Below are positions 7,556-39,916 of a DNA stretch of 64,000 nucleotides, in pieces (position 1 is the first letter of the stretch; the number at the start of each line of letters is the position of its first letter). The position numbers and the translations under genes were made by a program. A model generated the notes under the pieces. It did no database searches, was not told the DNA's origin, and saw only the letters and a program-made list of their open reading frames with translations. The stretch is from sequence record PZ179883.1; one strand, 5' to 3'. The stretch comes from a phage.

Positions 7556-8096
7556 ATAAAAAATCCAAACTAGGAGAATCGTCTACAACACTTTTCTTTT
7601 CAGCCCCCGGTGTTCTATAGGTTGATTCTTCGTAATGCGTCATTTTATCGTAGATGTCTTGAATAAAAGTTTCATCTACTAACGCAACCATATCGTCGTC
7701 ACGACTGTCATAGACATTGTGAACGAAGTAACTATATTTCTTTGCAACTTCCTTACGTTCTTTTTTAATACGTTGGACGAATGCATTAAAACAAGCTTGA
7801 GTTATATATGCATGCGGGTTTTTATATTTCGTTTCATCAAAATTATGAAGCCCCTTAATAGAAGCTTCTATACCATCTGCAATCATTTCTTGTTTCCAGG
7901 ATTGGGTGTATCCTGAAAAGTTGAAACGTTTAGATAAGCCTTCTGCAATAAGCATAATGGCTAATCCGATGGTATCATTCTGACGAACTACTTTATTTGG
8001 GTCTTTATTATTTGCTAATTCTGTTTTCCAATCAATAATAGCTTGTAAAAGCTCTTTATTGTTTACGTAATTATATTTAGGCTTAGTTTCTGACAT
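7539..8096 (-). CDS. 55: late-transcription sigma factor gp55
   Basis: From ATG 8094-8096: [24 protein letters not shown]..., 185 aa, matches recalled T4 gp55; track start at 8102 is GTG. Confidence 0.9.
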
Positions 8097-8174
8097 TTTC
8101 ACCTCTTAGCTCAATTCATAGATCTATTATATCATAATATTTGAAGATCTATCTTAAAGCATAGAGGATATCAG

Positions 8175-8444
8175 TTATCTAAGTAAACAGTATGCTTGGA
8201 ACACTTTCTCCATCATCTTTTTAAATTCATGAATATCTATGTAATGACTAGTTAAATCAGCATGATATAAAAAGTCTAAAAACTTTTCATGTGTGCTAAC
8301 ATATTCACTTTCATTTAATTCAGAAACATGGCTTTCCCAATATCCAACACCAGTCTTATTTGGGAAAAATGAAATTTTCATATATTGGTCAACATAGAAA
8401 ATTCCATAATTTTCAATAGTAATAGAAATATTAATAAATTTCAT
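8175..8444 (-). CDS. hypothetical protein (89 aa)
   Basis: Track ORF, 55.x region. Confidence 0.45.
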   Translation of the reverse strand: MKFINISITIENYGIFYVDQYMKISFFPNKTGVGYWESHVSELNESEYVSTHEKFLDFLYHADLTSHYIDIHEFKKMMEKVFQAYCLLR

Positions 8445-8656
8445 ACATTCATCAACTTAGCCGCTTCAAGAGCTGCATCTAGTGAATCAAATTGGTCAAC
8501 GTATTCAATCAATTCGCCATAATTAGCGTATAACCACCATTGGCTAAATTCATACTCAAGGATGAATCCATTTCCTTCAATTTGAGTTAAACCAATGCCA
8601 TTTGTATTTACTTCATATCCAGCAAGACGCAAATCGTTAATAAGAGCTTCGTTCAT
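8441..8656 (-). CDS. hypothetical protein (71 aa)
   Basis: Track ORF, stop/start overlap with neighbours. Confidence 0.45.
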   Translation of the reverse strand: MNEALINDLRLAGYEVNTNGIGLTQIEGNGFILEYEFSQWWLYANYGELIEYVDQFDSLDAALEAAKLMNV

Positions 8657-8658
8657 AA

Positions 8659-8985
8659 TTATACCTTAGTAATTTTCAGGTCTGCAAATTTTTTCTTACG
8701 TTGATTTTTCATGCGACGAATAGTTTTATCGGAAATTTCATGCTTTTGATAAGCTTTAGATTCTACACCAAAAGCTTTAACATCAAATTCTGACAAGATA
8801 TATTGAACCAACAATTCACGGACAGTATTGCGTCCAATCTTCTGATCATTCTGTTTCATCGTCTGATGAAGCTCTTTTTCCCATTTATCCAAAATTTGAG
8901 GAGTTACAATATCGCCTTTTTCTAGCAAAGAAACTACTTTATCATATGCGTAAGAATTGATGGCGTTTTTAATTTGAATAGTCAT
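8659..8985 (-). CDS. hypothetical protein (108 aa)
   Basis: Track ORF, basic C-terminus. Confidence 0.45.
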   Translation of the reverse strand: MTIQIKNAINSYAYDKVVSLLEKGDIVTPQILDKWEKELHQTMKQNDQKIGRNTVRELLVQYILSEFDVKAFGVESKAYQKHEISDKTIRRMKNQRKKKFADLKITKV

Positions 8986-13438: not shown

Positions 13439-13490
13439 TTAAGTATTGTAAAACATTCGATGCAATCGTTTATACTGTCGAATCATCTTT
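13439..13490. repeat. direct repeat copy A (about 50 bp, about 84 percent identical to 13652-13700)
   Basis: AAGTATTGTAAAACATTCGATGCAATCGTTTATACTGTCGAATC aligns with copy B. Confidence 0.7.
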
Positions 13491-13615
13491 TTAGTAGGAC
13501 GAGAATAGGTTCCTACGCAAGTGGTCATATGAGGGTCCGTAGAATGTCCTTTAATAAAAAGTTTCCAAACCTTACCGCCATTTAACTTTTCAGTATAAAC
13601 CAATTCGGTTTTCAT
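13439..13615 (-). CDS. small ORF (58 aa) sharing C-terminal 14 aa with pin
   Basis: ATG 13613-13615; MKTELVYTEKLNGGKVWKLF...IRQYKRLHRMFYNT; 3' end lies in a ~50 bp direct repeat of the pin 3' end. Confidence 0.35.
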   Translation of the reverse strand: MKTELVYTEKLNGGKVWKLFIKGHSTDPHMTTCVGTYSRPTKKMIRQYKRLHRMFYNT

Positions 13616-13651: not shown

Positions 13652-13700
13652 TCAAGTATTATAAAACATTTGATGCAATCGCTTATATTGCCGAATCTTT
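13652..13700. repeat. direct repeat copy B (3' end of pin)
   Basis: AAGTATTATAAAACATTTGATGCAATCGCTTATATTGCCGAATC. Confidence 0.7.
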
Positions 13701-14137
13701 TGGTCAGAAAAAGAAATTTGAGTTTCAAGCCATTCAATGTACTCTGCGGCAGCTTGCATCAGGTTACCTTCATAGCCATCGTTATTTTCTTGCGCAGCTA
13801 ATTTAGCTAATGCGTATGAAATACGTTCACCTTGAAAAGAGGCTTCAGGCTTCTGAACATCTTGGCTAGTTCTCTCTACAACTTCTTCAATTTCGCCATT
13901 TTCGACTGATTCAGTATTCCACAAGCACCAATACGTAATTGGCTTATCGTAGATGTTAATAATCTTTCCGTCGGAAAGTTCAATTTCAATAATTCCAGTA
14001 TCAGGTTCTATATCATCTTCACATTCTTTTGCAAGTTCACGAACTTTAAAGACAGTACCTGCACTAAGTTCCGGCCAGTAATTACACAGCCCTATATCAA
14101 CACGATTAATTCTAAACCACTTATCTACTGTAATCAT
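13652..14137 (-). CDS. pin: PinA-like protein (candidate Lon protease inhibitor)
   Basis: 161 aa from ATG 14135-14137 (track start 14155 is TTG); size and position next to gene 49 match T4 pin; no motif confirmation. Confidence 0.5.
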   Translation of the reverse strand: MITVDKWFRINRVDIGLCNYWPELSAGTVFKVRELAKECEDDIEPDTGIIEIELSDGKIINIYDKPITYWCLWNTESVENGEIEEVVERTSQDVQKPEASFQGERISYALAKLAAQENNDGYEGNLMQAAAEYIEWLETQISFSDQKIRQYKRLHQMFYNT

Positions 14138-14259
14138 GTCCCATCTCCATATCAATTAAGTCATTTATCGTTGGTTCATTATATACTGTTTCTTCATCAG
14201 TGTAAACCGGTTCTTCCGGCTCTGGCTCTACAGTTTCCCATCTAGCCGCCCACCAAGGT

Positions 14260-15200: not shown

Positions 15201-15456
15201 GCTCTGGTTTACGCCAGTTAATCAATTGGACCTGTTCAGTACCACATTTTGGGCAGTTCGGAACATTCTTAGAAGCCCTTTCGCGGCGTTCAACCATAAC
15301 CATAATGGCATCCCAAGCAGGAGGTTTAAAGTCTAGATCGTCACAGCCATGAATCTTTCCACGCATTTCTAAATCGTCTTCTTCACCAGCCATAATAATT
15401 TTAATTAGACTGGAATTACTTGAAGCTGCAATATCTTCTAATAAGCGCTTTTTCAT
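15139..15456 (-). CDS. zinc-ribbon protein (105 aa)
   Basis: CPKCG...CRHCKH four-cysteine motif. Confidence 0.5.
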
Positions 15457-16382
15457 TTCAATACCTCAATAGCATTACGTAAACCATTTGCTTTGGCGGT
15501 TAAAGCCTTAAGAACTTTAGTATGCTCTTCAATCTGTTTTTCAACTTCAATTAAGCGTGTATTAAGATATTCGCGTTCTTCACTCAGGTTATCAATCTTT
15601 TCTACTTTAGGTTCTTTTACAACTGGCTTATATGTATTAGGGTTCTTCAGTTTAATTAGAATGCGTGAACTGTACAGCATTGAACCATTATCTTCGGTTT
15701 CGTCATACATTTCCACTACGTCCATCATCTCCACCATCGTGCAGAGTTTATAAGACAACGAACGAATAGTTTTGTTGTGCTTATTAATTTCTCTAGCTGT
15801 CATGGTGCCGAGATTACGTGAGTAATAATAAGGAACCTGGATATTAATTAATACTGATGAACCACCTGGCTTGTGTGTTACTTCATCAGCAATAACCCAG
15901 TCCTTAACATGAACTGTATTTGTACGGTCATCGCCCGCGGTAAATAGTTTACGAGCATGCTTAAAAAGCATATTCACTTGGTCATTGAATTGACAAGCGA
16001 ATTTATCAGCAAATTTAGTTTCAGGAATGGTAGATAACCAATCAGCCAAATGGGTCTTTTTAACATCGTTAACAATAGTAAATTCAACCAAATCGGTTAT
16101 AGATGTCGCAGATTTAATGAAGCTCGGCTTCATAAAGTTTTTAATGTTATCACTAGCTACAGTAGAAGATAACAGACGAGAACGTTTAAACCATTGAAGC
16201 AAATTGCCTAACGAATGAGAATAAGCGTTTTGAGTATCTTTACAGATATGATTTTCCTGGCTAACATATTGAAGGAAATCACGAAGAATATTATTAATTA
16301 CTGCTCTGTGCCCGATCTGATAATTACGATGTTTAGTAATAAGACTGTCAAAATAATCAATATAATGTTTACGAGTTTTCAT
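15453..16382 (-). CDS. coiled-coil-tailed paralog family member 1 (309 aa)
   Basis: ATG verified; N-terminal MKTRKHYIDYF, Pro/Lys linker KPVVKEPKVEK, C-terminal heptad coiled coil. Confidence 0.6.
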   Translation of the reverse strand: MKTRKHYIDYFDSLITKHRNYQIGHRAVINNILRDFLQYVSQENHICKDTQNAYSHSLGNLLQWFKRSRLLSSTVASDNIKNFMKPSFIKSATSITDLVEFTIVNDVKKTHLADWLSTIPETKFADKFACQFNDQVNMLFKHARKLFTAGDDRTNTVHVKDWVIADEVTHKPGGSSVLINIQVPYYYSRNLGTMTAREINKHNKTIRSLSYKLCTMVEMMDVVEMYDETEDNGSMLYSSRILIKLKNPNTYKPVVKEPKVEKIDNLSEEREYLNTRLIEVEKQIEEHTKVLKALTAKANGLRNAIEVLK

Positions 16383-16434
16383 GTTCTTCTCACTTAGTTA
16401 ATGATTTATACTCCGAGCCATCCTTGGCTTTAAA

Positions 16435-17436
16435 TTACTTAATTAACTGTAAAGCTTGTTCAAGACGATCCAGGCGATTAACAGATTCTTCCCAAATCCT
16501 TTTAGCCTGTTCATATTCTTTCTGCGCTTTATTAGAAATTTCTAGAGCTTCTTTATAAGCTTTTTCTAATGCAATAACTTCTGGACGAATTTCTACCGAT
16601 TCAGGTGAATCATCAAGATTATCCATTAGTTCCTCAAGGGTAGTTTCTTCTTTAGGAGTATTCACAATTTCTTCGCATTTTTGTTGGTAAATTTCTTTAT
16701 CAGTAGGTGAGTACGCACACTTTACTTCACGAAGACTAACTACAATTTTGTATCCTTCCCAACCGCACACATTCTTAAAAGGATAAGTATGAATATTTTC
16801 GACTGTTTCCATACAAAGTAGTGCAGTCTCTAATTGACGAGTTATATCACTAGCAATTGAGAAAAATTTATTAATGTTCTTTTGATTAGCTTCTGGTGTA
16901 AAAAATTCATAATTCACAAAAATAGCTGCTTTATTTTTATCAAGCTCATATTCTTTTATGATAATCATATCAGAAGCCCAAGGATGAATTTGACGATAAT
17001 CACCATAGCATAATTTAGAAGCTGATTTTAGAATTTGCTTTTTGAAAAGTCTGAAATTACTAATCCAACGACGAGTAAAAATATTCTCAGGGTCTTCTTT
17101 ATTATTAAGATGATAAGAATTAACATCACCGAACCAATTATATCCTACTACATCTTTGGTTCGTTTAATTTCTTTCCCAAAATTACCAAGAATATCCTGA
17201 TTAACTAAATATGAAAGAAGACGAGAACCTTTAAAGGTTTCCTTAATATCACCTTTATCTTCGCGACTAGAAATTTTATGAACTTCATGAATAAATTTGC
17301 TGGAAGAAACAATGCTTACATCAATATTATTGAGCCATTGATTGATAATGGAAATCACGCTATTCTGACTAGACACAGGTTTAACTTTATCATCAATAAC
17401 GCTGTTGAATGATTTGATATATTCATTACGAGTCAT
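16435..17436 (-). CDS. coiled-coil-tailed paralog family member 2 (333 aa)
   Basis: ATG with GAGGAG RBS, downstream of early promoter; shares RLFKKQILKSASKL motif and C-terminal coiled coil. Confidence 0.6.
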   Translation of the reverse strand: MTRNEYIKSFNSVIDDKVKPVSSQNSVISIINQWLNNIDVSIVSSSKFIHEVHKISSREDKGDIKETFKGSRLLSYLVNQDILGNFGKEIKRTKDVVGYNWFGDVNSYHLNNKEDPENIFTRRWISNFRLFKKQILKSASKLCYGDYRQIHPWASDMIIIKEYELDKNKAAIFVNYEFFTPEANQKNINKFFSIASDITRQLETALLCMETVENIHTYPFKNVCGWEGYKIVVSLREVKCAYSPTDKEIYQQKCEEIVNTPKEETTLEELMDNLDDSPESVEIRPEVIALEKAYKEALEISNKAQKEYEQAKRIWEESVNRLDRLEQALQLIK

Positions 17437-17464
17437 ATTAATCTCCTCAGTAGAAAGTAAGAAT

Positions 17465-17494
17465 ATTATACCACATCCCTGTGGTAAAGTAAAC
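17465..17494 (-). promoter_or_regulatory. early promoter (GTTTAC, 18 nt, TGGTATAAT)
   Basis: GTTTAC 17489-17494, TATAAT 17465-17470; 28 nt upstream of ATG 17436. Confidence 0.65.
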
Positions 17495-18516
17495 TAGTTC
17501 AGTGCATTTAGTGCATTGTTCAGTTTAGAACGTTGCTTCGTGAGATTTTTGACTTTTTCTTGAGCTTTTTCTAGCATCTTTTCAGCTTCTAGCACTTCAT
17601 TAGTTGCTTTAACGAGTTCATCATCTACTGCCTTGATAGACTTCTCAATCGCATCTGCATGCCATTTTTCAACAGGTTTAAGACTCGGATTTTCAATAGG
17701 AAGAAAATTCACTTTATTGAATTTCCATGCATCTTTATTACCTGAACTATACATCCAAAATTTAGGATCGTTTGATGAGTAATTGGATAAATTTAAGTTA
17801 TCTTGCACTTCCTGCTTTTTCTCTTGTGTGACTTCGTCCTTTCTCAAAAAATCGTATTTAAATGAAACGATCATATCAAGTTCATATGTTGTTGTATGTT
17901 CCCAATTTCGCTCAAAACGAGGTAAAATCTTAGATTGAACAGCAGCAACAACATCCATATACTTAAATGCTTCTGTTAACTGCGATTTAAGGCATTCACA
18001 AATTGAAAGAGAATTTTTTGTATTAGGTTTAAAGCTAATTCGTGCAGTTCTATTATTTTCTTTTAATGGTCTTACTTCCATCTGAAGAGTATAACCATCA
18101 AATTTCAGATTCTTTAAGTTAATATCAGAACCTTTTAATCGACTAGCCGTCGACAAAATTTGCTTTAATTGTCTACGGAACAGAGCAATAAATCTCCATT
18201 CAATACGATAATGATTTGGATTGAAAAATCCAGATGATAAATCGACCTTACTTTGACCAACGCCTTGAACAAATAGAGGATTTTTATAATCAATAGTTTT
18301 ACAGAAATCGGTGAGCTGTTCACGAGCAGTCATTTGTGTAATATACCCTGCTTTACTAAAATTACGCACCCATTCACTGCTATTCGTATACTTAAAGTGA
18401 TGAATAACACGATTAACTTTATCAGGGTCTAAATTATTTTCACACAAAAATGTCATAACATCACGAGTATAGCTGGCATTACGAACCATATCTTCAATTT
18501 GAGAACGAGTTTTCAT
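17494..18516 (-). CDS. coiled-coil-tailed paralog family member 3 (340 aa)
   Basis: ATG verified; ALFRRQLKQILSTASRL motif; C-terminal coiled coil. Confidence 0.6.
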   Translation of the reverse strand: MKTRSQIEDMVRNASYTRDVMTFLCENNLDPDKVNRVIHHFKYTNSSEWVRNFSKAGYITQMTAREQLTDFCKTIDYKNPLFVQGVGQSKVDLSSGFFNPNHYRIEWRFIALFRRQLKQILSTASRLKGSDINLKNLKFDGYTLQMEVRPLKENNRTARISFKPNTKNSLSICECLKSQLTEAFKYMDVVAAVQSKILPRFERNWEHTTTYELDMIVSFKYDFLRKDEVTQEKKQEVQDNLNLSNYSSNDPKFWMYSSGNKDAWKFNKVNFLPIENPSLKPVEKWHADAIEKSIKAVDDELVKATNEVLEAEKMLEKAQEKVKNLTKQRSKLNNALNALN

Positions 18517-18524
18517 GGTGTTCC

Positions 18525-19412
18525 TTAAGATTTAAGTAAATCAACGATTTTAATTAATTTTTCACGCTCAGATTTAGCTTTACTACTCAATCCAGATAGT
18601 CTGAAAATTTCATCATCATATTGCTGAATAGAAATATTTAGCTCTTCAATCTGCTTATTAAAATAAGCAATTTGTTCAGAATGTTTTTCATTACTGCGAA
18701 CTGGTACAGGTTTTGTAGGTAATTTAGTTGAACTGGATTCATCTGGGCGATAAATTAAAATACAACTTGAACCGATAGGGCATTTTGCACCAGATGAATA
18801 TTCTAATGTTCCAGCTTCTTTTAAAACTTCAAAAGCTAAACAGAGATGATGCCCCATATTAACATAATCTGTAGAGCGAGCTCTGATGTAATAATCATCT
18901 CCACGAGTACTAAATTTAAAGCATTTAAGGTCTTCTGTATTATTGGTCTTAAAAATCATTTGTTTATCTAGACCTTTAGCTAATCGAGCGCCTAATGCTA
19001 ATAATCGTCGTTGATTTTCCCACAAATCCGCTATCATTTGGTCAAATGATAATTTCGGCATTAGTCGACCATAAAGGTCATATCCTTTATTATAATTGCG
19101 AAGGATTTCACTCGCATTAATACGAGACAACGCTCCAATTTTATTAAGGGCTTTCATGATGCGATTAGATAAACCCATTCCAGATCCGTTTGTTCGTTGC
19201 AAATGTTTATCTAATCCAAACCCAATATCAACTTTAAATTTATCTAAAATTTCAGCATGAACATCTCTGTCAATAACATTCAAATCCAAAGTTGGGTTAA
19301 ATCTATGAAAAAATTTATCTGGCTCTCCACGACGAAGTACAGTCCATTCATTTAATTTTTTATTAACTAAAGATTTAATTACTGCATTGACATTATTAAT
19401 TACTACTGACAT
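18525..19412 (-). CDS. coiled-coil-tailed paralog family member 4 (295 aa)
   Basis: ATG verified; RRLLALGARLAKG motif; C-terminal coiled coil. Confidence 0.55.
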   Translation of the reverse strand: MSVVINNVNAVIKSLVNKKLNEWTVLRRGEPDKFFHRFNPTLDLNVIDRDVHAEILDKFKVDIGFGLDKHLQRTNGSGMGLSNRIMKALNKIGALSRINASEILRNYNKGYDLYGRLMPKLSFDQMIADLWENQRRLLALGARLAKGLDKQMIFKTNNTEDLKCFKFSTRGDDYYIRARSTDYVNMGHHLCLAFEVLKEAGTLEYSSGAKCPIGSSCILIYRPDESSSTKLPTKPVPVRSNEKHSEQIAYFNKQIEELNISIQQYDDEIFRLSGLSSKAKSEREKLIKIVDLLKS

Positions 19413-19828: not shown

Positions 19829-19883
19829 AATAATCTCAATTAAAAGGGCTTAGAACCATTATACCATCCTTGGTATAAAGCGG

Positions 19884-20411
19884 TTATGCGAGTACCGTCT
19901 TTAACCGTTCTTCAAACTTCCGAAGAGTATTTTGGCGTTCAGCTCTTTGCTTTTTGTAAGTTTCAATACGCTCTGAAATGAGAGAGTATCGTTCATTTAC
20001 TGATTCTTTCATAAAATCAGGAATTTCACGAGAAGCTTTAATCTCGTCAAATTTATCAATAACAGCTTGCTCTTCAGCAATTAAGTTATCATACATTAAA
20101 ATATCTTTCTTGATGAACTCAATATCTTCTTGAGTTACACGAGACATTTTAGATGCTTTATCCTTTTTGTACTGTTCGTTAGTATCACGAGACCAGTGTA
20201 ATGTACGATTTTTATTCGTATTCTTGTAAATTTCTACAATACCGATCTCATCAATAATAACGATCCAATTCCAACGGGATTTGTAAATTTGTCCTCCATC
20301 AACAGTGATTTCACCTCCGATTGAGATGTCGTTAAAGAACTTGCTTTGCGCTTCAGATTTAAATTTGCCATCGTTGTAATTTACCAAGTTGAAAATATCT
20401 TTAGCGTTCAT
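19884..20411 (-). CDS. hypothetical protein (175 aa)
   Basis: ATG 20409-20411 with GGAGGAA RBS directly downstream of early promoter. Confidence 0.55.
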   Translation of the reverse strand: MNAKDIFNLVNYNDGKFKSEAQSKFFNDISIGGEITVDGGQIYKSRWNWIVIIDEIGIVEIYKNTNKNRTLHWSRDTNEQYKKDKASKMSRVTQEDIEFIKKDILMYDNLIAEEQAVIDKFDEIKASREIPDFMKESVNERYSLISERIETYKKQRAERQNTLRKFEERLKTVLA

Positions 20412-38966: not shown

Positions 38967-39042
38967 TGGTCGAGGCAGTAGGGATCGAACCTACGACCTA
39001 GGACTTAGAAGGTCCTTGCTCTTCCTTCTGAGCTATGCCCCG
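38967..39042 (-). tRNA. tRNA-Arg (anticodon TCT), CCA encoded
   Basis: Manual fold: 7 bp acceptor, T-loop TTCGATC, anticodon loop CTTCTAA. Confidence 0.85.
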
Positions 39043-39046
39043 TAAT

Positions 39047-39128
39047 TGGGGTGACCGATGGGAGTCGAACCCATGACTACGAGAATCACAATCACAATCT
39101 CGAGTTCTACCAACTGAACTACGGCCAC
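39047..39128 (-). tRNA. tRNA-His-like (GTG) with 13-nt anticodon loop; possible pseudo-tRNA
   Basis: Acceptor, D-arm, T-arm and discriminator C resemble tRNA-His; anticodon stem CGAGA/TCTCG encloses TTGTGATTGTGAT. Confidence 0.55.
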
Positions 39129-39242
39129 ATTAATACCTACTCCAACAATCAAGATGTCTTCACACGAAATTAAGAGAAGAGTGATCAGTTCAACCCCTAT
39201 AATCGCGTCAAGTAGATATTAATGTGACAGTTGTCACAAATT

Positions 39243-39317
39243 TGGCGGACGTGATAGGATTCGAACCTATAACCAATCGCTTAACAGGCGATCGCTCTGC
39301 CATTGAGCTACACATCC
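39243..39317 (-). tRNA. tRNA-Asn (anticodon GTT), CCA encoded
   Basis: Manual fold: acceptor GGATGTG/CACGTCC, anticodon loop CTGTTAA, T-loop TTCGAAT. Confidence 0.85.
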
Positions 39318-39321
39318 AAAT

Positions 39322-39408
39322 TGGTGGGGAGTGGTGGAGTCGAACCACCCGAGTCGCAATGACAATGGATTTACAGTCCACACCGCTACCTCTACGGGAT
39401 AACTCCCC
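39322..39408 (-). tRNA. tRNA-Tyr (anticodon GTA), long variable arm, CCA encoded
   Basis: Manual fold: anticodon loop CTGTAAA, T-arm GGTGG-TTCGACT-CCACC. Confidence 0.8.
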
Positions 39409-39417
39409 AAATTAATT

Positions 39418-39492
39418 TGGTGGCCCTGGGTGGAATTGAACCACCATCTGGCGATTATGAGTCGCTTGCTTGAACCTTCCAGCTACAGGGCC
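39418..39492 (-). tRNA. tRNA with CAT anticodon (Ile2-type as in T4, or Met)
   Basis: Manual fold: acceptor GGCCCTG/CAGGGCC, anticodon loop CTCATAA. Confidence 0.75.
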
Positions 39493-39493
39493 T

Positions 39494-39569
39494 TGGTGCT
39501 GATTGACGGAATCGAACCGCCGACCTTCTCATTACAAGTGAGTTGCTCTACCTACTGAGCTAAATCAGC
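39494..39569 (-). tRNA. tRNA-Thr (anticodon TGT), CCA encoded
   Basis: Manual fold: acceptor GCTGATT/AATCAGC, anticodon loop CTTGTAA. Confidence 0.85.
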
Positions 39570-39574
39570 AAAAC

Positions 39575-39664
39575 TGGCGGAGGCGATAGGATTTGAACCT
39601 ATGAGTCGCCGGAGCGACTGCCGGTTTTCAAGACCGGTGCATTAAACCACTCTGCCACGCCTCC
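39575..39664 (-). tRNA. tRNA-Ser (anticodon TGA), long variable arm, CCA encoded
   Basis: Manual fold: anticodon arm CCGGT-CTTGAAA-ACCGG, T-loop TTCAAAT. Confidence 0.85.
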
Positions 39665-39666
39665 AG

Positions 39667-39740
39667 TCTCCGTGGCAGGATTTGAACCTACGACATTCTG
39701 CTCCCAAAGCAGACGCTCTACCAAACTGAGCTACACGGAG
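39667..39740 (-). tRNA. tRNA-Pro (anticodon TGG), CCA not encoded
   Basis: Manual fold: acceptor CTCCGTG/CACGGAG, anticodon loop TTTGGGA. Confidence 0.85.
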
Positions 39741-39750
39741 TAAATTAAAT

Positions 39751-39824
<74 letters not shown>

Positions 39825-39829
39825 AAATT

Positions 39830-39916
39830 TGGTGCGAGAAGTGGGACTCGAACCCACAAGGAAATCATTCCGCAGCATTTTAAGTGCTGTGCCTTTACCA
39901 ATTTGACCATTCTCGC
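39830..39916 (-). tRNA. tRNA-Leu (anticodon TAA), long variable arm, CCA encoded
   Basis: Manual fold: acceptor GCGAGAA/TTCTCGC, anticodon loop CTTAAAA. Confidence 0.85.

What the first reader, a model, noticed from the sequence alone, without database searches (positions are those of the whole stretch)
15453..19412. Four tandem paralogous genes, each ending in a predicted coiled coil
Four consecutive 295-340 aa genes share a globular N-terminal region with a conserved basic motif (RLFKKQILKSASKL / ALFRRQLKQILSTASRL / RRLLALGARLAKG), a Pro/Lys-rich linker (KPVVKEPK, NPSLKPVEKW, KLPTKPVPV) and a C-terminal heptad-repeat helix of about 50 aa. One has its own early promoter. Tandem, diverged paralogs in an early accessory region are typical of host-interaction or anti-defence arrays.
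Basis: seen in the sequence. Interest (0 to 1): 0.6.

Follow-up and report, generated by a model that had tools for sequence, protein, structure and literature searches.

The report
T4 nrdC.3–nrdC.6 anti-defence paralog array
These four neighbouring genes of a T4-like phage are true diverged copies of one ancestral gene, one copy (nrdC.5) is already published as the phage's inhibitor of the bacterial Dsr1 immune protein, and the other three are therefore good untested candidates for inhibitors of other bacterial defences.

Summary
The window is a Tequatrovirus, and the four minus-strand genes are the orthologs of T4 nrdC.3 (A), nrdC.4 (B), nrdC.5 (C) and nrdC.6 (D). Plain BLASTP links only A and B. 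Profile-profile comparison links C to A/B (97% probability, E 8e-11). D links to both once bridging orthologs are added (83-85%, E ~1e-5), always in register over the "basic motif". AlphaFold models of B and D have the same order of secondary-structure elements and hit the same uncharacterised T4-like phage proteins. The tails of A, B and C show heptad periodicity; D's is weaker and kinked. In divergent orthologs the tail is the best-conserved part of the protein. B has its own conserved T4 early-type promoter. All four genes are dispensable on E. coli K-12, and natural phages often delete or fuse them. What appears to be undescribed is that three separate Pfam families form one superfamily with a shared head-linker-tail architecture. 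The targets of A, B and D and the mechanism remain unknown. Interest is moderate.

The parts
15453..16382 (-). Gene A, ortholog of T4 nrdC.3 (309 aa). It is a PF26897/phrog_1435 family member and the youngest duplicate, of A/B type.
   Evidence: ORF. T4 synteny. phrog_1435 E 2.6e-115. hhalign to the B family 97% probability. Mosaic versus T4: only the core is 40-56% identical.
16435..17436 (-). Gene B, ortholog of T4 nrdC.4 (333 aa), PF26897/phrog_1435.
   Evidence: AlphaFold model pLDDT 84, pTM 0.68.
17494..18516 (-). Gene C, ortholog of T4 nrdC.5 (340 aa), DUF7235/PF23882. This is the published anti-Dsr1 counter-defence gene.
   Evidence: Pfam 436 bits against a cutoff of 30. 95.6% identical to T4 NrdC.5. 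Function from PMC9391042.
18525..19412 (-). Gene D, ortholog of T4 nrdC.6 (295 aa), PF26899/phrog_2257. It is the most divergent paralog.
   Evidence: AlphaFold model pLDDT 77. Same BFVD hits as B. Bridged profile links E ~1e-5.
16993..17070 (-). Conserved 'basic motif' helix pair in B (aa 123-148, RWISNFRLFKKQILKSASKLCYGDYR). Equivalents: A 15924-16001, C 18124-18198, D 18963-19037.
   Evidence: hhalign aligns these segments to each other in every family pair. Superfamily alignment consensus F...F.......LA...RL..G. Helices H119-130/H132-142 in B and H123-132/H134-144 in D.
17173..17235 (-). Second conserved helix in B (aa 68-88, FKGSRLLSYLVNQDILGNFGK). Equivalents: A 16128-16190, C 18298-18360, D 19086-19148.
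   Evidence: Aligned in register in all profile comparisons and in the 15-sequence alignment.
15456..15590 (-). C-terminal heptad tail of A (aa 265-309).
   Evidence: Best period 3.45, p = 0.003. 93-100% identical to T4 although the core is 40-56%.
16438..16584 (-). C-terminal heptad tail of B (aa 285-333), preceded by the disordered acidic linker at 16582-16662.
   Evidence: Single 48-residue helix H285-332, linker pLDDT < 50. Period 3.45, p = 0.001. Tail 76% identical where the core is 20% (P0064).
17497..17667 (-). C-terminal heptad tail of C (aa 284-340).
   Evidence: Period 3.50, 0 of 2000 shuffles reach the observed value, plus a 7/3 harmonic.
18528..18692 (-). C-terminal helical tail of D (aa 241-295). 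It forms two helices with a kink at the conserved Gly, and its heptad signal is weaker.
   Evidence: H241-271 + H276-294. P(3.5) p ~ 0.02. Tail 55-71% identical against a core of ~42% in divergent orthologs.
17465..17494 (-). T4 early-type promoter in front of B: GTTTACT, 17-nt spacer, extended -10 TGgTATAAT. It is followed by a GAGGAG ribosome-binding site.
   Evidence: The same element is conserved in T4, Bas37 and phage 132. It is a consensus match only; no transcription data were examined.
19858..19881 (-). MotA-box-like element (GCTTTA), 12 nt, then TATAAT, upstream of nrdC.7. It is a possible middle promoter feeding nrdC.7, D and C, which are tightly packed (8-11 nt gaps).
   Evidence: Read directly from the sequence. 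Comparison with the T4 middle-promoter consensus is from my own knowledge and was not tested.

Best explanation
The four genes are the T4 nrdC.3-nrdC.6 orthologs. They are products of tandem duplication and divergence of one ancestral gene that is single-copy in distant T4-like genera.

Each encodes the same modular protein: an N-terminal helical region and an alpha/beta core (the variable 'head'), a flexible Pro/Lys-rich or acidic linker, and a conserved C-terminal heptad helix (the 'tail'). They are transcribed early or in the middle period, and B has its own early promoter.

They are conditionally useful accessory genes. C (NrdC.5) neutralises the host SIR2-family defence protein Dsr1 (shown by others). 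I infer that A, B and D neutralise other host defence proteins. I also infer that the head binds the target stoichiometrically, while the tail drives homo-oligomerisation that gives avidity or matches the symmetry of an oligomeric target.

Basis of each step. Shown here: paralogy, architecture, tail conservation, promoter motif, natural loss and fusion. Shown in the literature: NrdC.5 versus Dsr1, dispensability on K-12, anti-defence neighbours. Inferred: anti-defence role of A, B and D; direct binding; oligomerisation.
For: Identity and synteny.

Paralogy.

Shared fold: the models hit the same BFVD targets (IME523, PM2, fHyAci03, Acj9, Mineola, PS2) at E 1e-7 to 1e-3 (PS2 only E 0.05 for D).

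Duplication history: the D-C-A/B order is conserved in Mosigvirus and Dhakavirus three-gene arrays. The single Entb_45 copy hits all three family HMMs: 8.6e-7, 3.8e-3, 4.9e-3.

Heptad tails.

The tail is more conserved than the head. In A the core is 40-56% identical to T4 while the tail is 93-100%.

Published functions: NrdC.5 is anti-Dsr1 (PMC9391042). nrdC.1 is anti-Septu and NrdC.8 is anti-Druantia III. gp49.2 is anti-OLD.

Dispensability: all four genes are non-essential in T4 and Bas37 transposon libraries.

Accessory behaviour in nature: B and C occur in ~550 phage records against 742 for D and NrdC.8. There are deletions, pseudogene remnants and in-frame chimeras.

No enzymatic or known domain was found in Pfam, NCBIfam, PADLOC, or PDB by sequence. 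This fits a binding protein rather than an enzyme.
Against: Only one of the four has any experimental link to defence, and even for it the mechanism is unknown; an indirect effect on Dsr1 is not excluded.

HIDEN-SEQ screens against several defence systems gave no hit for nrdC.3, nrdC.4 or nrdC.6. This covers only the parts of the supplement that I read.

Oligomerisation is inferred from heptad periodicity alone; no multimer model was possible. D's tail is kinked and only weakly heptad.

Strong conservation of the tail sequence is more than a generic coiled coil needs. It may instead point to a specific conserved partner.

dN/dS is below 1 everywhere, with a maximum of 0.37 in the A core. There is therefore no direct signature of positive selection.
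Confidence: 0.55

Rival explanations
1. Shared-adaptor model. The conserved tail is not, or not only, a self-association module. It docks all four paralogs onto one common partner, either a host machine or another phage protein, and the variable heads bring different targets to that partner for sequestration, modification or degradation.
For: In divergent orthologs the tail is the best-conserved region: 55-76% identity against 20-48% for the core. The junction (K/T/R)P(V/I/E) and the terminal motif R.KL..A(L/I)..LK at the very C-terminus recur across all families and genera. The A allele swap has its breakpoint at the tail, which stays 93-100% identical. The natural in-frame chimera Manna_094 places a D head on a B tail.
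Against: Tail sequences differ clearly between the four paralogs within one phage, apart from the last ~12 residues. That is what one expects if each paralog self-associates specifically. No partner is known, and no tool here could test binding. The P0231 'new head on C tail' example rests on a single 803-bp metagenome contig.
Confidence: 0.15
2. A, B and D are host-takeover or physiology modulators, acting on transcription, the nucleoid or metabolism, rather than anti-defence proteins. Only C happened to acquire an anti-defence role.
For: No defence phenotype is reported for A, B or D. Parts of the proteins are basic: A aa 1-72 net +6, D aa 1-120 net +8, C core net +9. A's N-terminal helices give weak hits to the DNA-binding N-terminal domain of tyrosine recombinases (NCBIfam E 5e-4, Pfam 0.08, both far below cutoff).
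Against: The genes are dispensable on K-12, are frequently deleted in natural isolates, and sit among four published anti-defence genes. Paralogs of an anti-defence protein usually keep the same kind of job. The recombinase-domain hits are far below the curated thresholds.
Confidence: 0.2
3. Structural-mimic decoy. The alpha/beta core imitates a phage virion protein (tail-terminator-like fold) and occupies the sensor of a defence protein early in infection, before the real late protein appears.
Confidence: 0.07
4. The resemblance of D to the other three is convergent or due to chance. On this view the array is three paralogs plus an unrelated neighbour that also ends in a helix.
For: No direct sequence or profile link exists without bridging sequences (E >= 0.03). 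Foldseek TM-scores to shared targets are only 0.3-0.5.
Against: With bridging orthologs the profile links reach E ~1e-5 in register. The Entb_45 single-copy protein is the top non-self hit of the D, C and A/B HMMs. The order of secondary-structure elements is identical. The position and D-C-A/B order are the same in three genera. The junction and terminal tail motif are shared.
Confidence: 0.03

Closest known systems
T4 NrdC.5 (DUF7235, PF23882), anti-Dsr1 counter-defence protein (Srikant, Guegler & Laub, eLife 2022, PMC9391042)
   Same: Gene C is its ortholog: 95.6% identity, the same position in the genome, and a full-length Pfam match. A, B and D are its paralogs with the same head-linker-tail layout.
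   Different: A, B and D do not match the DUF7235 model and have no known target. The published work gives no mechanism, structure or mention of the paralogs.
DSAD1, the SPbeta-group phage inhibitor of DSR2 (another SIR2 NADase defence)
   Same: It is a phage protein that blocks an NAD-depleting SIR2 defence protein, reported to act by direct binding (abstracts listed). It is the nearest mechanistic analogy for NrdC.5.
   Different: No sequence or fold relationship was detected here. DSAD1 acts on DSR2 in Bacillus phages. Whether NrdC.5 binds Dsr1 at all is untested.
Anti-defence gene clusters of T-even phages: the dmd-tifA-adfA 'anti-TA island', and the neighbouring 49.2 (anti-OLD), nrdC.1 (anti-Septu) and nrdC.8 (anti-Druantia III)
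   Same: Early, non-essential, fast-turnover genes clustered between conserved genes. The array lies inside such a cluster, between gene 49 and nrdC.10.
   Different: Those neighbours are small proteins (60-175 aa) unrelated to one another. Here four ~300-aa genes are homologous to each other, so diversification came from tandem duplication rather than collection of unrelated genes. NrdC.8 is not a member (hhalign probability < 1%, and its tail periodicity is 3.6 rather than 3.5).
Pfam PF26897 (NrdC.3/NrdC.4) and PF26899 (NrdC.6); PHROGs 1435, 2351, 2257
   Same: The four proteins fall cleanly into these families.
   Different: The databases treat them as three unrelated families of unknown function. 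The evidence here unites them in one superfamily, together with single-copy proteins of Kanagawavirus, Jiaodavirus, Acinetobacter phages and others.

Membership tests
DUF7235 / PF23882 (T4 NrdC.5, anti-Dsr1) | Full-length match to the Pfam model above the gathering score | tested here: met
   C scores 436.4 bits against a cutoff of 30, E 8.6e-131, covering 1-340. A, B and D give no match to this model, so only C is a member.
DUF7235 / PF23882 (T4 NrdC.5, anti-Dsr1) | Orthology to the experimentally tested T4 protein (high identity, same locus) | tested here: met
   95.6% identity over 340 aa, flanked by nrdC.4 and nrdC.6 as in T4.
DUF7235 / PF23882 (T4 NrdC.5, anti-Dsr1) | Restores phage growth on a Dsr1-carrying host | not testable with these tools
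   Shown for the T4 protein only (PMC9391042).
NrdC.3-6 superfamily (proposed here) | Significant in-register profile-profile similarity between all member families | tested here: met
   A-B E 1.7e-11. C-A/B E 8e-11, D-A/B E 9.6e-6, D-C E 6.4e-6. The D links need the bridging orthologs.
NrdC.3-6 superfamily (proposed here) | Common fold | tested here: met
   B and D models have the same order of secondary-structure elements and share six BFVD hits with full-length alignments. There was no direct B-D superposition, and A and C were not modelled.
Coiled coil | Hydrophobic periodicity of 3.5 residues (heptad) over >= 4 heptads in a predicted helix | tested here: met
   A, B and C have best period 3.45-3.50, p <= 0.003. 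B's tail is one 48-residue helix. An ad hoc a/d score passed the 99th percentile of shuffles for A, C and D but not B. No standard predictor (COILS, DeepCoil) was available.
Coiled coil | Same heptad periodicity test for protein D | tested here: inconclusive
   P(3.5) p ~ 0.02. The helix is broken at a Gly into 31 + 19 residues.
Coiled coil | Actual oligomer formation | not testable with these tools
   No multimer prediction was available.
Tyrosine recombinase N-terminal SAM-like domain | Match above the curated cutoff | tested here: not met
   A aa 30-86: 19.4 bits against a cutoff of 279 (NCBIfam), and 13.6 against 22.3 (Pfam).
T4 early promoter | -35 GTTTAC(A/T), 17-nt spacer, extended -10 TGnTATAAT upstream of a gene | tested here: met
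   17494-17465(-), 10/12 hexamer matches plus TG, conserved in three other Tequatroviruses. Activity was not tested.

The most novel reading that the evidence does not exclude
The family is a modular 'one tail, many heads' counter-defence platform. On this reading the strongly conserved C-terminal tail, with its KP(V/I) junction and terminal R.KL..A(L/I)..LK motif, docks every paralog onto one common partner or into one assembly. Duplicated, recombining heads each capture a different host immune protein, perhaps relatives sharing Dsr1/Avs7-type TPR sensors. Tandem duplication, allele swapping with a breakpoint at the tail, and in-frame head-tail chimeras would then be the way T-even phages generate new anti-defence specificities.
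Probability: 0.12. Interest if true: 0.8.

Novelty: new member of a known kind. Interest (0 to 1): 0.5.

Why it matters
NrdC.5 is one of very few known inhibitors of Dsr1-type SIR2 immunity, and its mechanism is unknown. If nrdC.3, nrdC.4 and nrdC.6 are its paralogs with the same architecture, that gives three ready-made candidates for new anti-defence activities in the best-studied phage. It also gives a domain map for dissecting NrdC.5: variable head, flexible linker, conserved heptad tail. It merges three 'domains of unknown function' into one superfamily spread across T4-like phages of Escherichia, Klebsiella, Enterobacter, Acinetobacter, Pectobacterium and others. Finally, the array shows how such genes diversify: duplication, deep allele replacement and natural chimeras.

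Tried and rejected
(1) Pairwise BLASTP detected only A-B, and the first hhalign round left D unlinked. Divergent orthologs from the exhaustive HMMER search and from other genera were needed.

(2) P0120 was considered as evidence of recombination at homologous positions. It is an out-of-register deletion fusion of C and A, so it says nothing about homology.

(3) P0231 (unrelated head plus a tail identical to C's) and the tail-only tblastn hits were considered as evidence of head swapping. P0231 comes from one 803-bp contig. ACG-C40 and Pinarejo are out-of-frame deletion remnants. Only Manna_094 is an in-frame chimera.

(4) NrdC.8 as a fifth member was rejected: hhalign probability < 1% and tail period 3.6.

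(5) Known-domain searches found nothing meaningful (Pfam, PHROGs, NCBIfam, PADLOC, PDB by sequence). The A1 hits to designed helical repeat proteins have no stretch that passes on its own, so they are compositional. The BrxC, PgrA and DUF4164 hits cover only the coiled-coil tail.

(7) Positive selection was rejected: dN/dS < 1 everywhere, and A's divergence from T4 is an old allele (dS ~1-1.26) rather than recent adaptive change.

(8) Guessing BASEL accession numbers wasted two calls (43, 51). Bas37 was found through tblastn instead.

Full report
**What the window is.** The 3,960-bp region matches 657 phage records at megablast level. Nearly all are Tequatrovirus (T4-like) phages of Escherichia, Shigella, Yersinia and Salmonella, and the best match is 97.4% identical. 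Comparison with the annotated T4 genome shows the genes are the orthologs of nrdC.3 (A, 15453-16382), nrdC.4 (B, 16435-17436), nrdC.5 (C, 17494-18516) and nrdC.6 (D, 18525-19412). All lie on the minus strand, between nrdC.7/nrdC.8 upstream and nrdC.2/nrdC.1/nrdC downstream.

**Are they paralogs?**
- Pairwise BLASTP supports only A-B (25.7% identity over 226 residues, E 1.7e-8). All other pairs have E >= 0.06.
- PHROGs and Pfam split them into three families: A and B in phrog_1435/PF26897, C in phrog_2351/PF23882 (DUF7235), D in phrog_2257/PF26899.
- Profile-profile comparison gives A-B 97% probability (E 1.7e-11) and, at first, B-C 59% (E 9.5e-5).
- An exhaustive HMMER search of 1.84 billion representatives with the C family found only 13 hits. 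Three are divergent full-length relatives. Adding them raised C vs A+B to 94%, E 1.3e-7, over 157 columns.
- D remained unlinked by sequence, so I modelled B (pLDDT 84, pTM 0.68) and D (pLDDT 77, pTM 0.65).
- From the basic motif onward both models have the same succession: helix pair, beta hairpin, long helix, beta hairpin, a disordered linker (pLDDT < 50), and a long C-terminal helix.
- Against BFVD, both models hit the same uncharacterised 309-370-aa proteins of distant T4-like phages: Enterobacter IME523, Pectobacterium PM2, Acinetobacter fHyAci03 and Acj9, Klebsiella Mineola and Serratia PS2. The alignments are full-length, at E 1e-7 to 1e-3 (PS2 only E 0.05 for D).

**Bridging orthologs and duplication history.**
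- I used the conserved neighbour NrdC.10 as an anchor and fetched the equivalent regions of seven phages.
- Mosigvirus and Dhakavirus carry three-gene arrays in the order D-type, C-type, A/B-type.
- Kanagawavirus Entb_45 and Jiaodavirus PKO111 have a single copy. The PKO111 copy is unannotated.
- In a 264-ORF decoy database the three family HMMs hit only these array genes at E <= 0.01. The single Entb_45 protein is hit by all three: D 8.6e-7, C 3.8e-3, A/B 4.9e-3.
- With these bridges in the profiles, D vs A/B reaches 83% (E 9.6e-6), D vs C 85% (E 6.4e-6) and C vs A/B 97% (E 8e-11). All are in register over the helix FK.SRLLS...L..FGK and the basic motif.
- A 15-sequence alignment is colinear from the N-terminal M(K)TR..YI to the C-terminal R.KL..A(L/I)..LK.
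- I conclude that the four genes descend from one gene. The D, C and A/B lineages predate the Tequatro/Mosig/Dhaka split, and A is a later A/B-type duplicate.

**The tail.**
- Family-averaged hydrophobicity of the A, B and C tails peaks at a period of 3.45-3.50 residues. P(3.5) exceeds 99.7% or more of shuffles and is stronger than P(3.6).
- D is weaker (p ~ 0.02), and its model shows two helices separated at a conserved Gly.
- In divergent orthologs the tail is the most conserved segment. B vs P0064: core 20%, tail 76%. D family: core ~42%, tail 55-71%. C vs P0226: core 45%, tail 61%.

**Expression signals.**
- The 57-nt gap between C and B contains GTTTACT-17 nt-TGgTATAAT followed by a GAGGAG ribosome-binding site. 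It is conserved in T4, Bas37 and phage 132. This confirms the statement that one gene has its own early promoter, as a consensus match.
- nrdC.7, D and C are separated by only 8-11 nt. They follow a GCTTTA-12 nt-TATAAT element that resembles a MotA-dependent middle promoter (the consensus is from my own knowledge).

**What is known.**
- Srikant, Guegler and Laub (PMC9391042) found that a T4 clone with compensatory deletions could not plate on ECOR17 unless dsr1 was deleted. They also found that expressing T4 nrdC.5 alone restored plating on MG1655 carrying dsr1. C is 95.6% identical to that protein.
- Dsr1 combines a SIR2 effector with a TPR sensor reported to recognise major capsid proteins (PMC12803255).
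- The HIDEN-SEQ preprint identifies nrdC.1 as anti-Septu and bas37_0203 as anti-Druantia III.
- bas37_0203 is the NrdC.8 ortholog, 98.3% identical to window ORF 19884-20411.
- gp49.2 of T6 is anti-OLD (PMC13096335).
- The same preprint's supplement classes nrdC.3-nrdC.6, and their Bas37 orthologs, as non-essential on K-12. In the parts I read it reports no significant conditional phenotype for them.
- I found no paper in the searchable library that mentions nrdC.3 or the paralogy.

**Natural variation.**
- By tblastn, D and NrdC.8 occur in 742 phage records, A in 654, and B and C in about 550.
- A exists as two allele classes: 354 records at >= 90% identity and 291 at 60-80%.
- Against T4, A's first 72 residues are 83-90% identical, the core 40-56% and the tail 93-100%. 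dS is about 1.0-1.26 for residues 1-262 and 0.2 in the tail. dN/dS is 0.09 (N-terminus), 0.37 (core) and 0.29 (tail).
- This pattern is an ancient allele exchanged by recombination with a breakpoint at the tail. It is not recent positive selection.
- ACG-C40 has lost most of C, all of B and most of A. Pinarejo has lost D's head. Both remnants are out of frame.
- Manna carries an in-frame chimera of D residues 1-~268 with B residues 251-333. P0120 is a C-A fusion.

**What it is not.**
- No enzymatic or otherwise known domain was found.
- There are no solved relatives by sequence.
- NrdC.8 is not a family member.

**Most likely mechanism and verdict.**
- The best reading is a family of early/middle accessory proteins. 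In this reading a variable globular head binds a host defence protein and a heptad tail oligomerises the inhibitor.
- Paralogy and architecture are shown here (confidence about 0.9).
- The anti-Dsr1 role of C rests on the published T4 experiment (about 0.85 for this ortholog).
- An anti-defence role for A, B and D is inference from paralogy, context, dispensability and turnover (about 0.5).
- The binding and oligomerisation mechanism is inference (about 0.35).
- The main alternative worth testing is that the unusually conserved tail is a shared adaptor rather than a simple oligomerisation module.
- The key function is already published for one member, so this counts as new members and a unifying description of a known kind. 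Interest is moderate.

Noticed in passing
window ~18630-18640 (D tail); L002 (T4 NC_000866) 8067-8894: The T4 reference genome has a 1-nt deletion relative to the window (GAGCT-GATATT vs GAGCTAAATATT). It frameshifts nrdC.6 after residue ~258, giving 275 aa instead of 295, although the downstream DNA still encodes the intact tail in another frame. Another T4 record (OZ209023) and the T4 annotation used for HIDEN-SEQ (891 nt) are full length, so this is a reference-specific mutation or sequencing error.
   Followed up: partly
window 19884-20411 (-): This ORF (NrdC.8, 175 aa) is 98.3% identical to bas37_0203 of phage Bas37 (KarlGJung), which a 2025 preprint reports as an inhibitor of Druantia type III. 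It ends in an amphipathic helix with period 3.6, not a heptad, and is unrelated to the four-gene family.
   Followed up: yes
window 15453-16382 (-) vs T4 nrdC.3: nrdC.3 exists as two deeply diverged allele classes among Tequatroviruses. This phage and T4 differ by 38% in protein sequence while the flanking genes are 95-100% identical. The recombination breakpoint lies at the start of the tail.
   Followed up: yes
P0121 (Shigella phage Sf25 NrdC.6, 378 aa): It contains an exact 83-residue internal tandem duplication (176-258 = 259-341) spanning the second half of the core, the linker and the first tail helix.
   Followed up: partly
L015 4215-5252 (Salmonella phage Manna), L014 4805-5219 (ACG-C40), L016 4936-5152 (Pinarejo): These are natural rearrangements of the array. 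Manna has an in-frame D-head/B-tail chimera. ACG-C40 has a frameshifted remnant after loss of C, B and A. Pinarejo has an unannotated out-of-frame D remnant.
   Followed up: yes
L007 14154-15128 (Klebsiella phage PKO111): A 324-aa member of the superfamily lies in a 1-kb stretch that carries no annotated gene in the RefSeq record.
   Followed up: partly
window 13439-13615 (-) and 13652-14155 (-): A 58-aa ORF between gene 49 and pin ends with nearly the same 14 residues as Pin itself (IRQYKRLH[R/Q]MFYNT; 47 of 62 nt identical). This suggests a partial duplication of the 3' end of pin, perhaps left by a gene insertion.
   Followed up: no
window 38967-39916 (-): A cluster of 10 tRNA genes lies here, one with an odd 2-base anticodon call. 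It explains the local GC peak of 0.43.
   Followed up: no
window ~16400-16410 (-), the gap between B and A: TATAAATC, a 7/8 match to the T4 late-promoter consensus TATAAATA (from my own knowledge), lies next to a small GCCA/TGGC hairpin just upstream of A. It could well be chance in AT-rich DNA.
   Followed up: no
window 46000 onward: GC skew changes sign near 46 kb, where coding switches from the minus to the plus strand. This is presumably the boundary between the early/middle region and the late structural genes.
   Followed up: no
annotation of many GenBank records: Dozens of records label nrdC.3-nrdC.10 homologs as 'thioredoxin'. This appears to be name propagation from the gene symbol nrdC.x; none of these proteins has a thioredoxin domain.
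   Followed up: no
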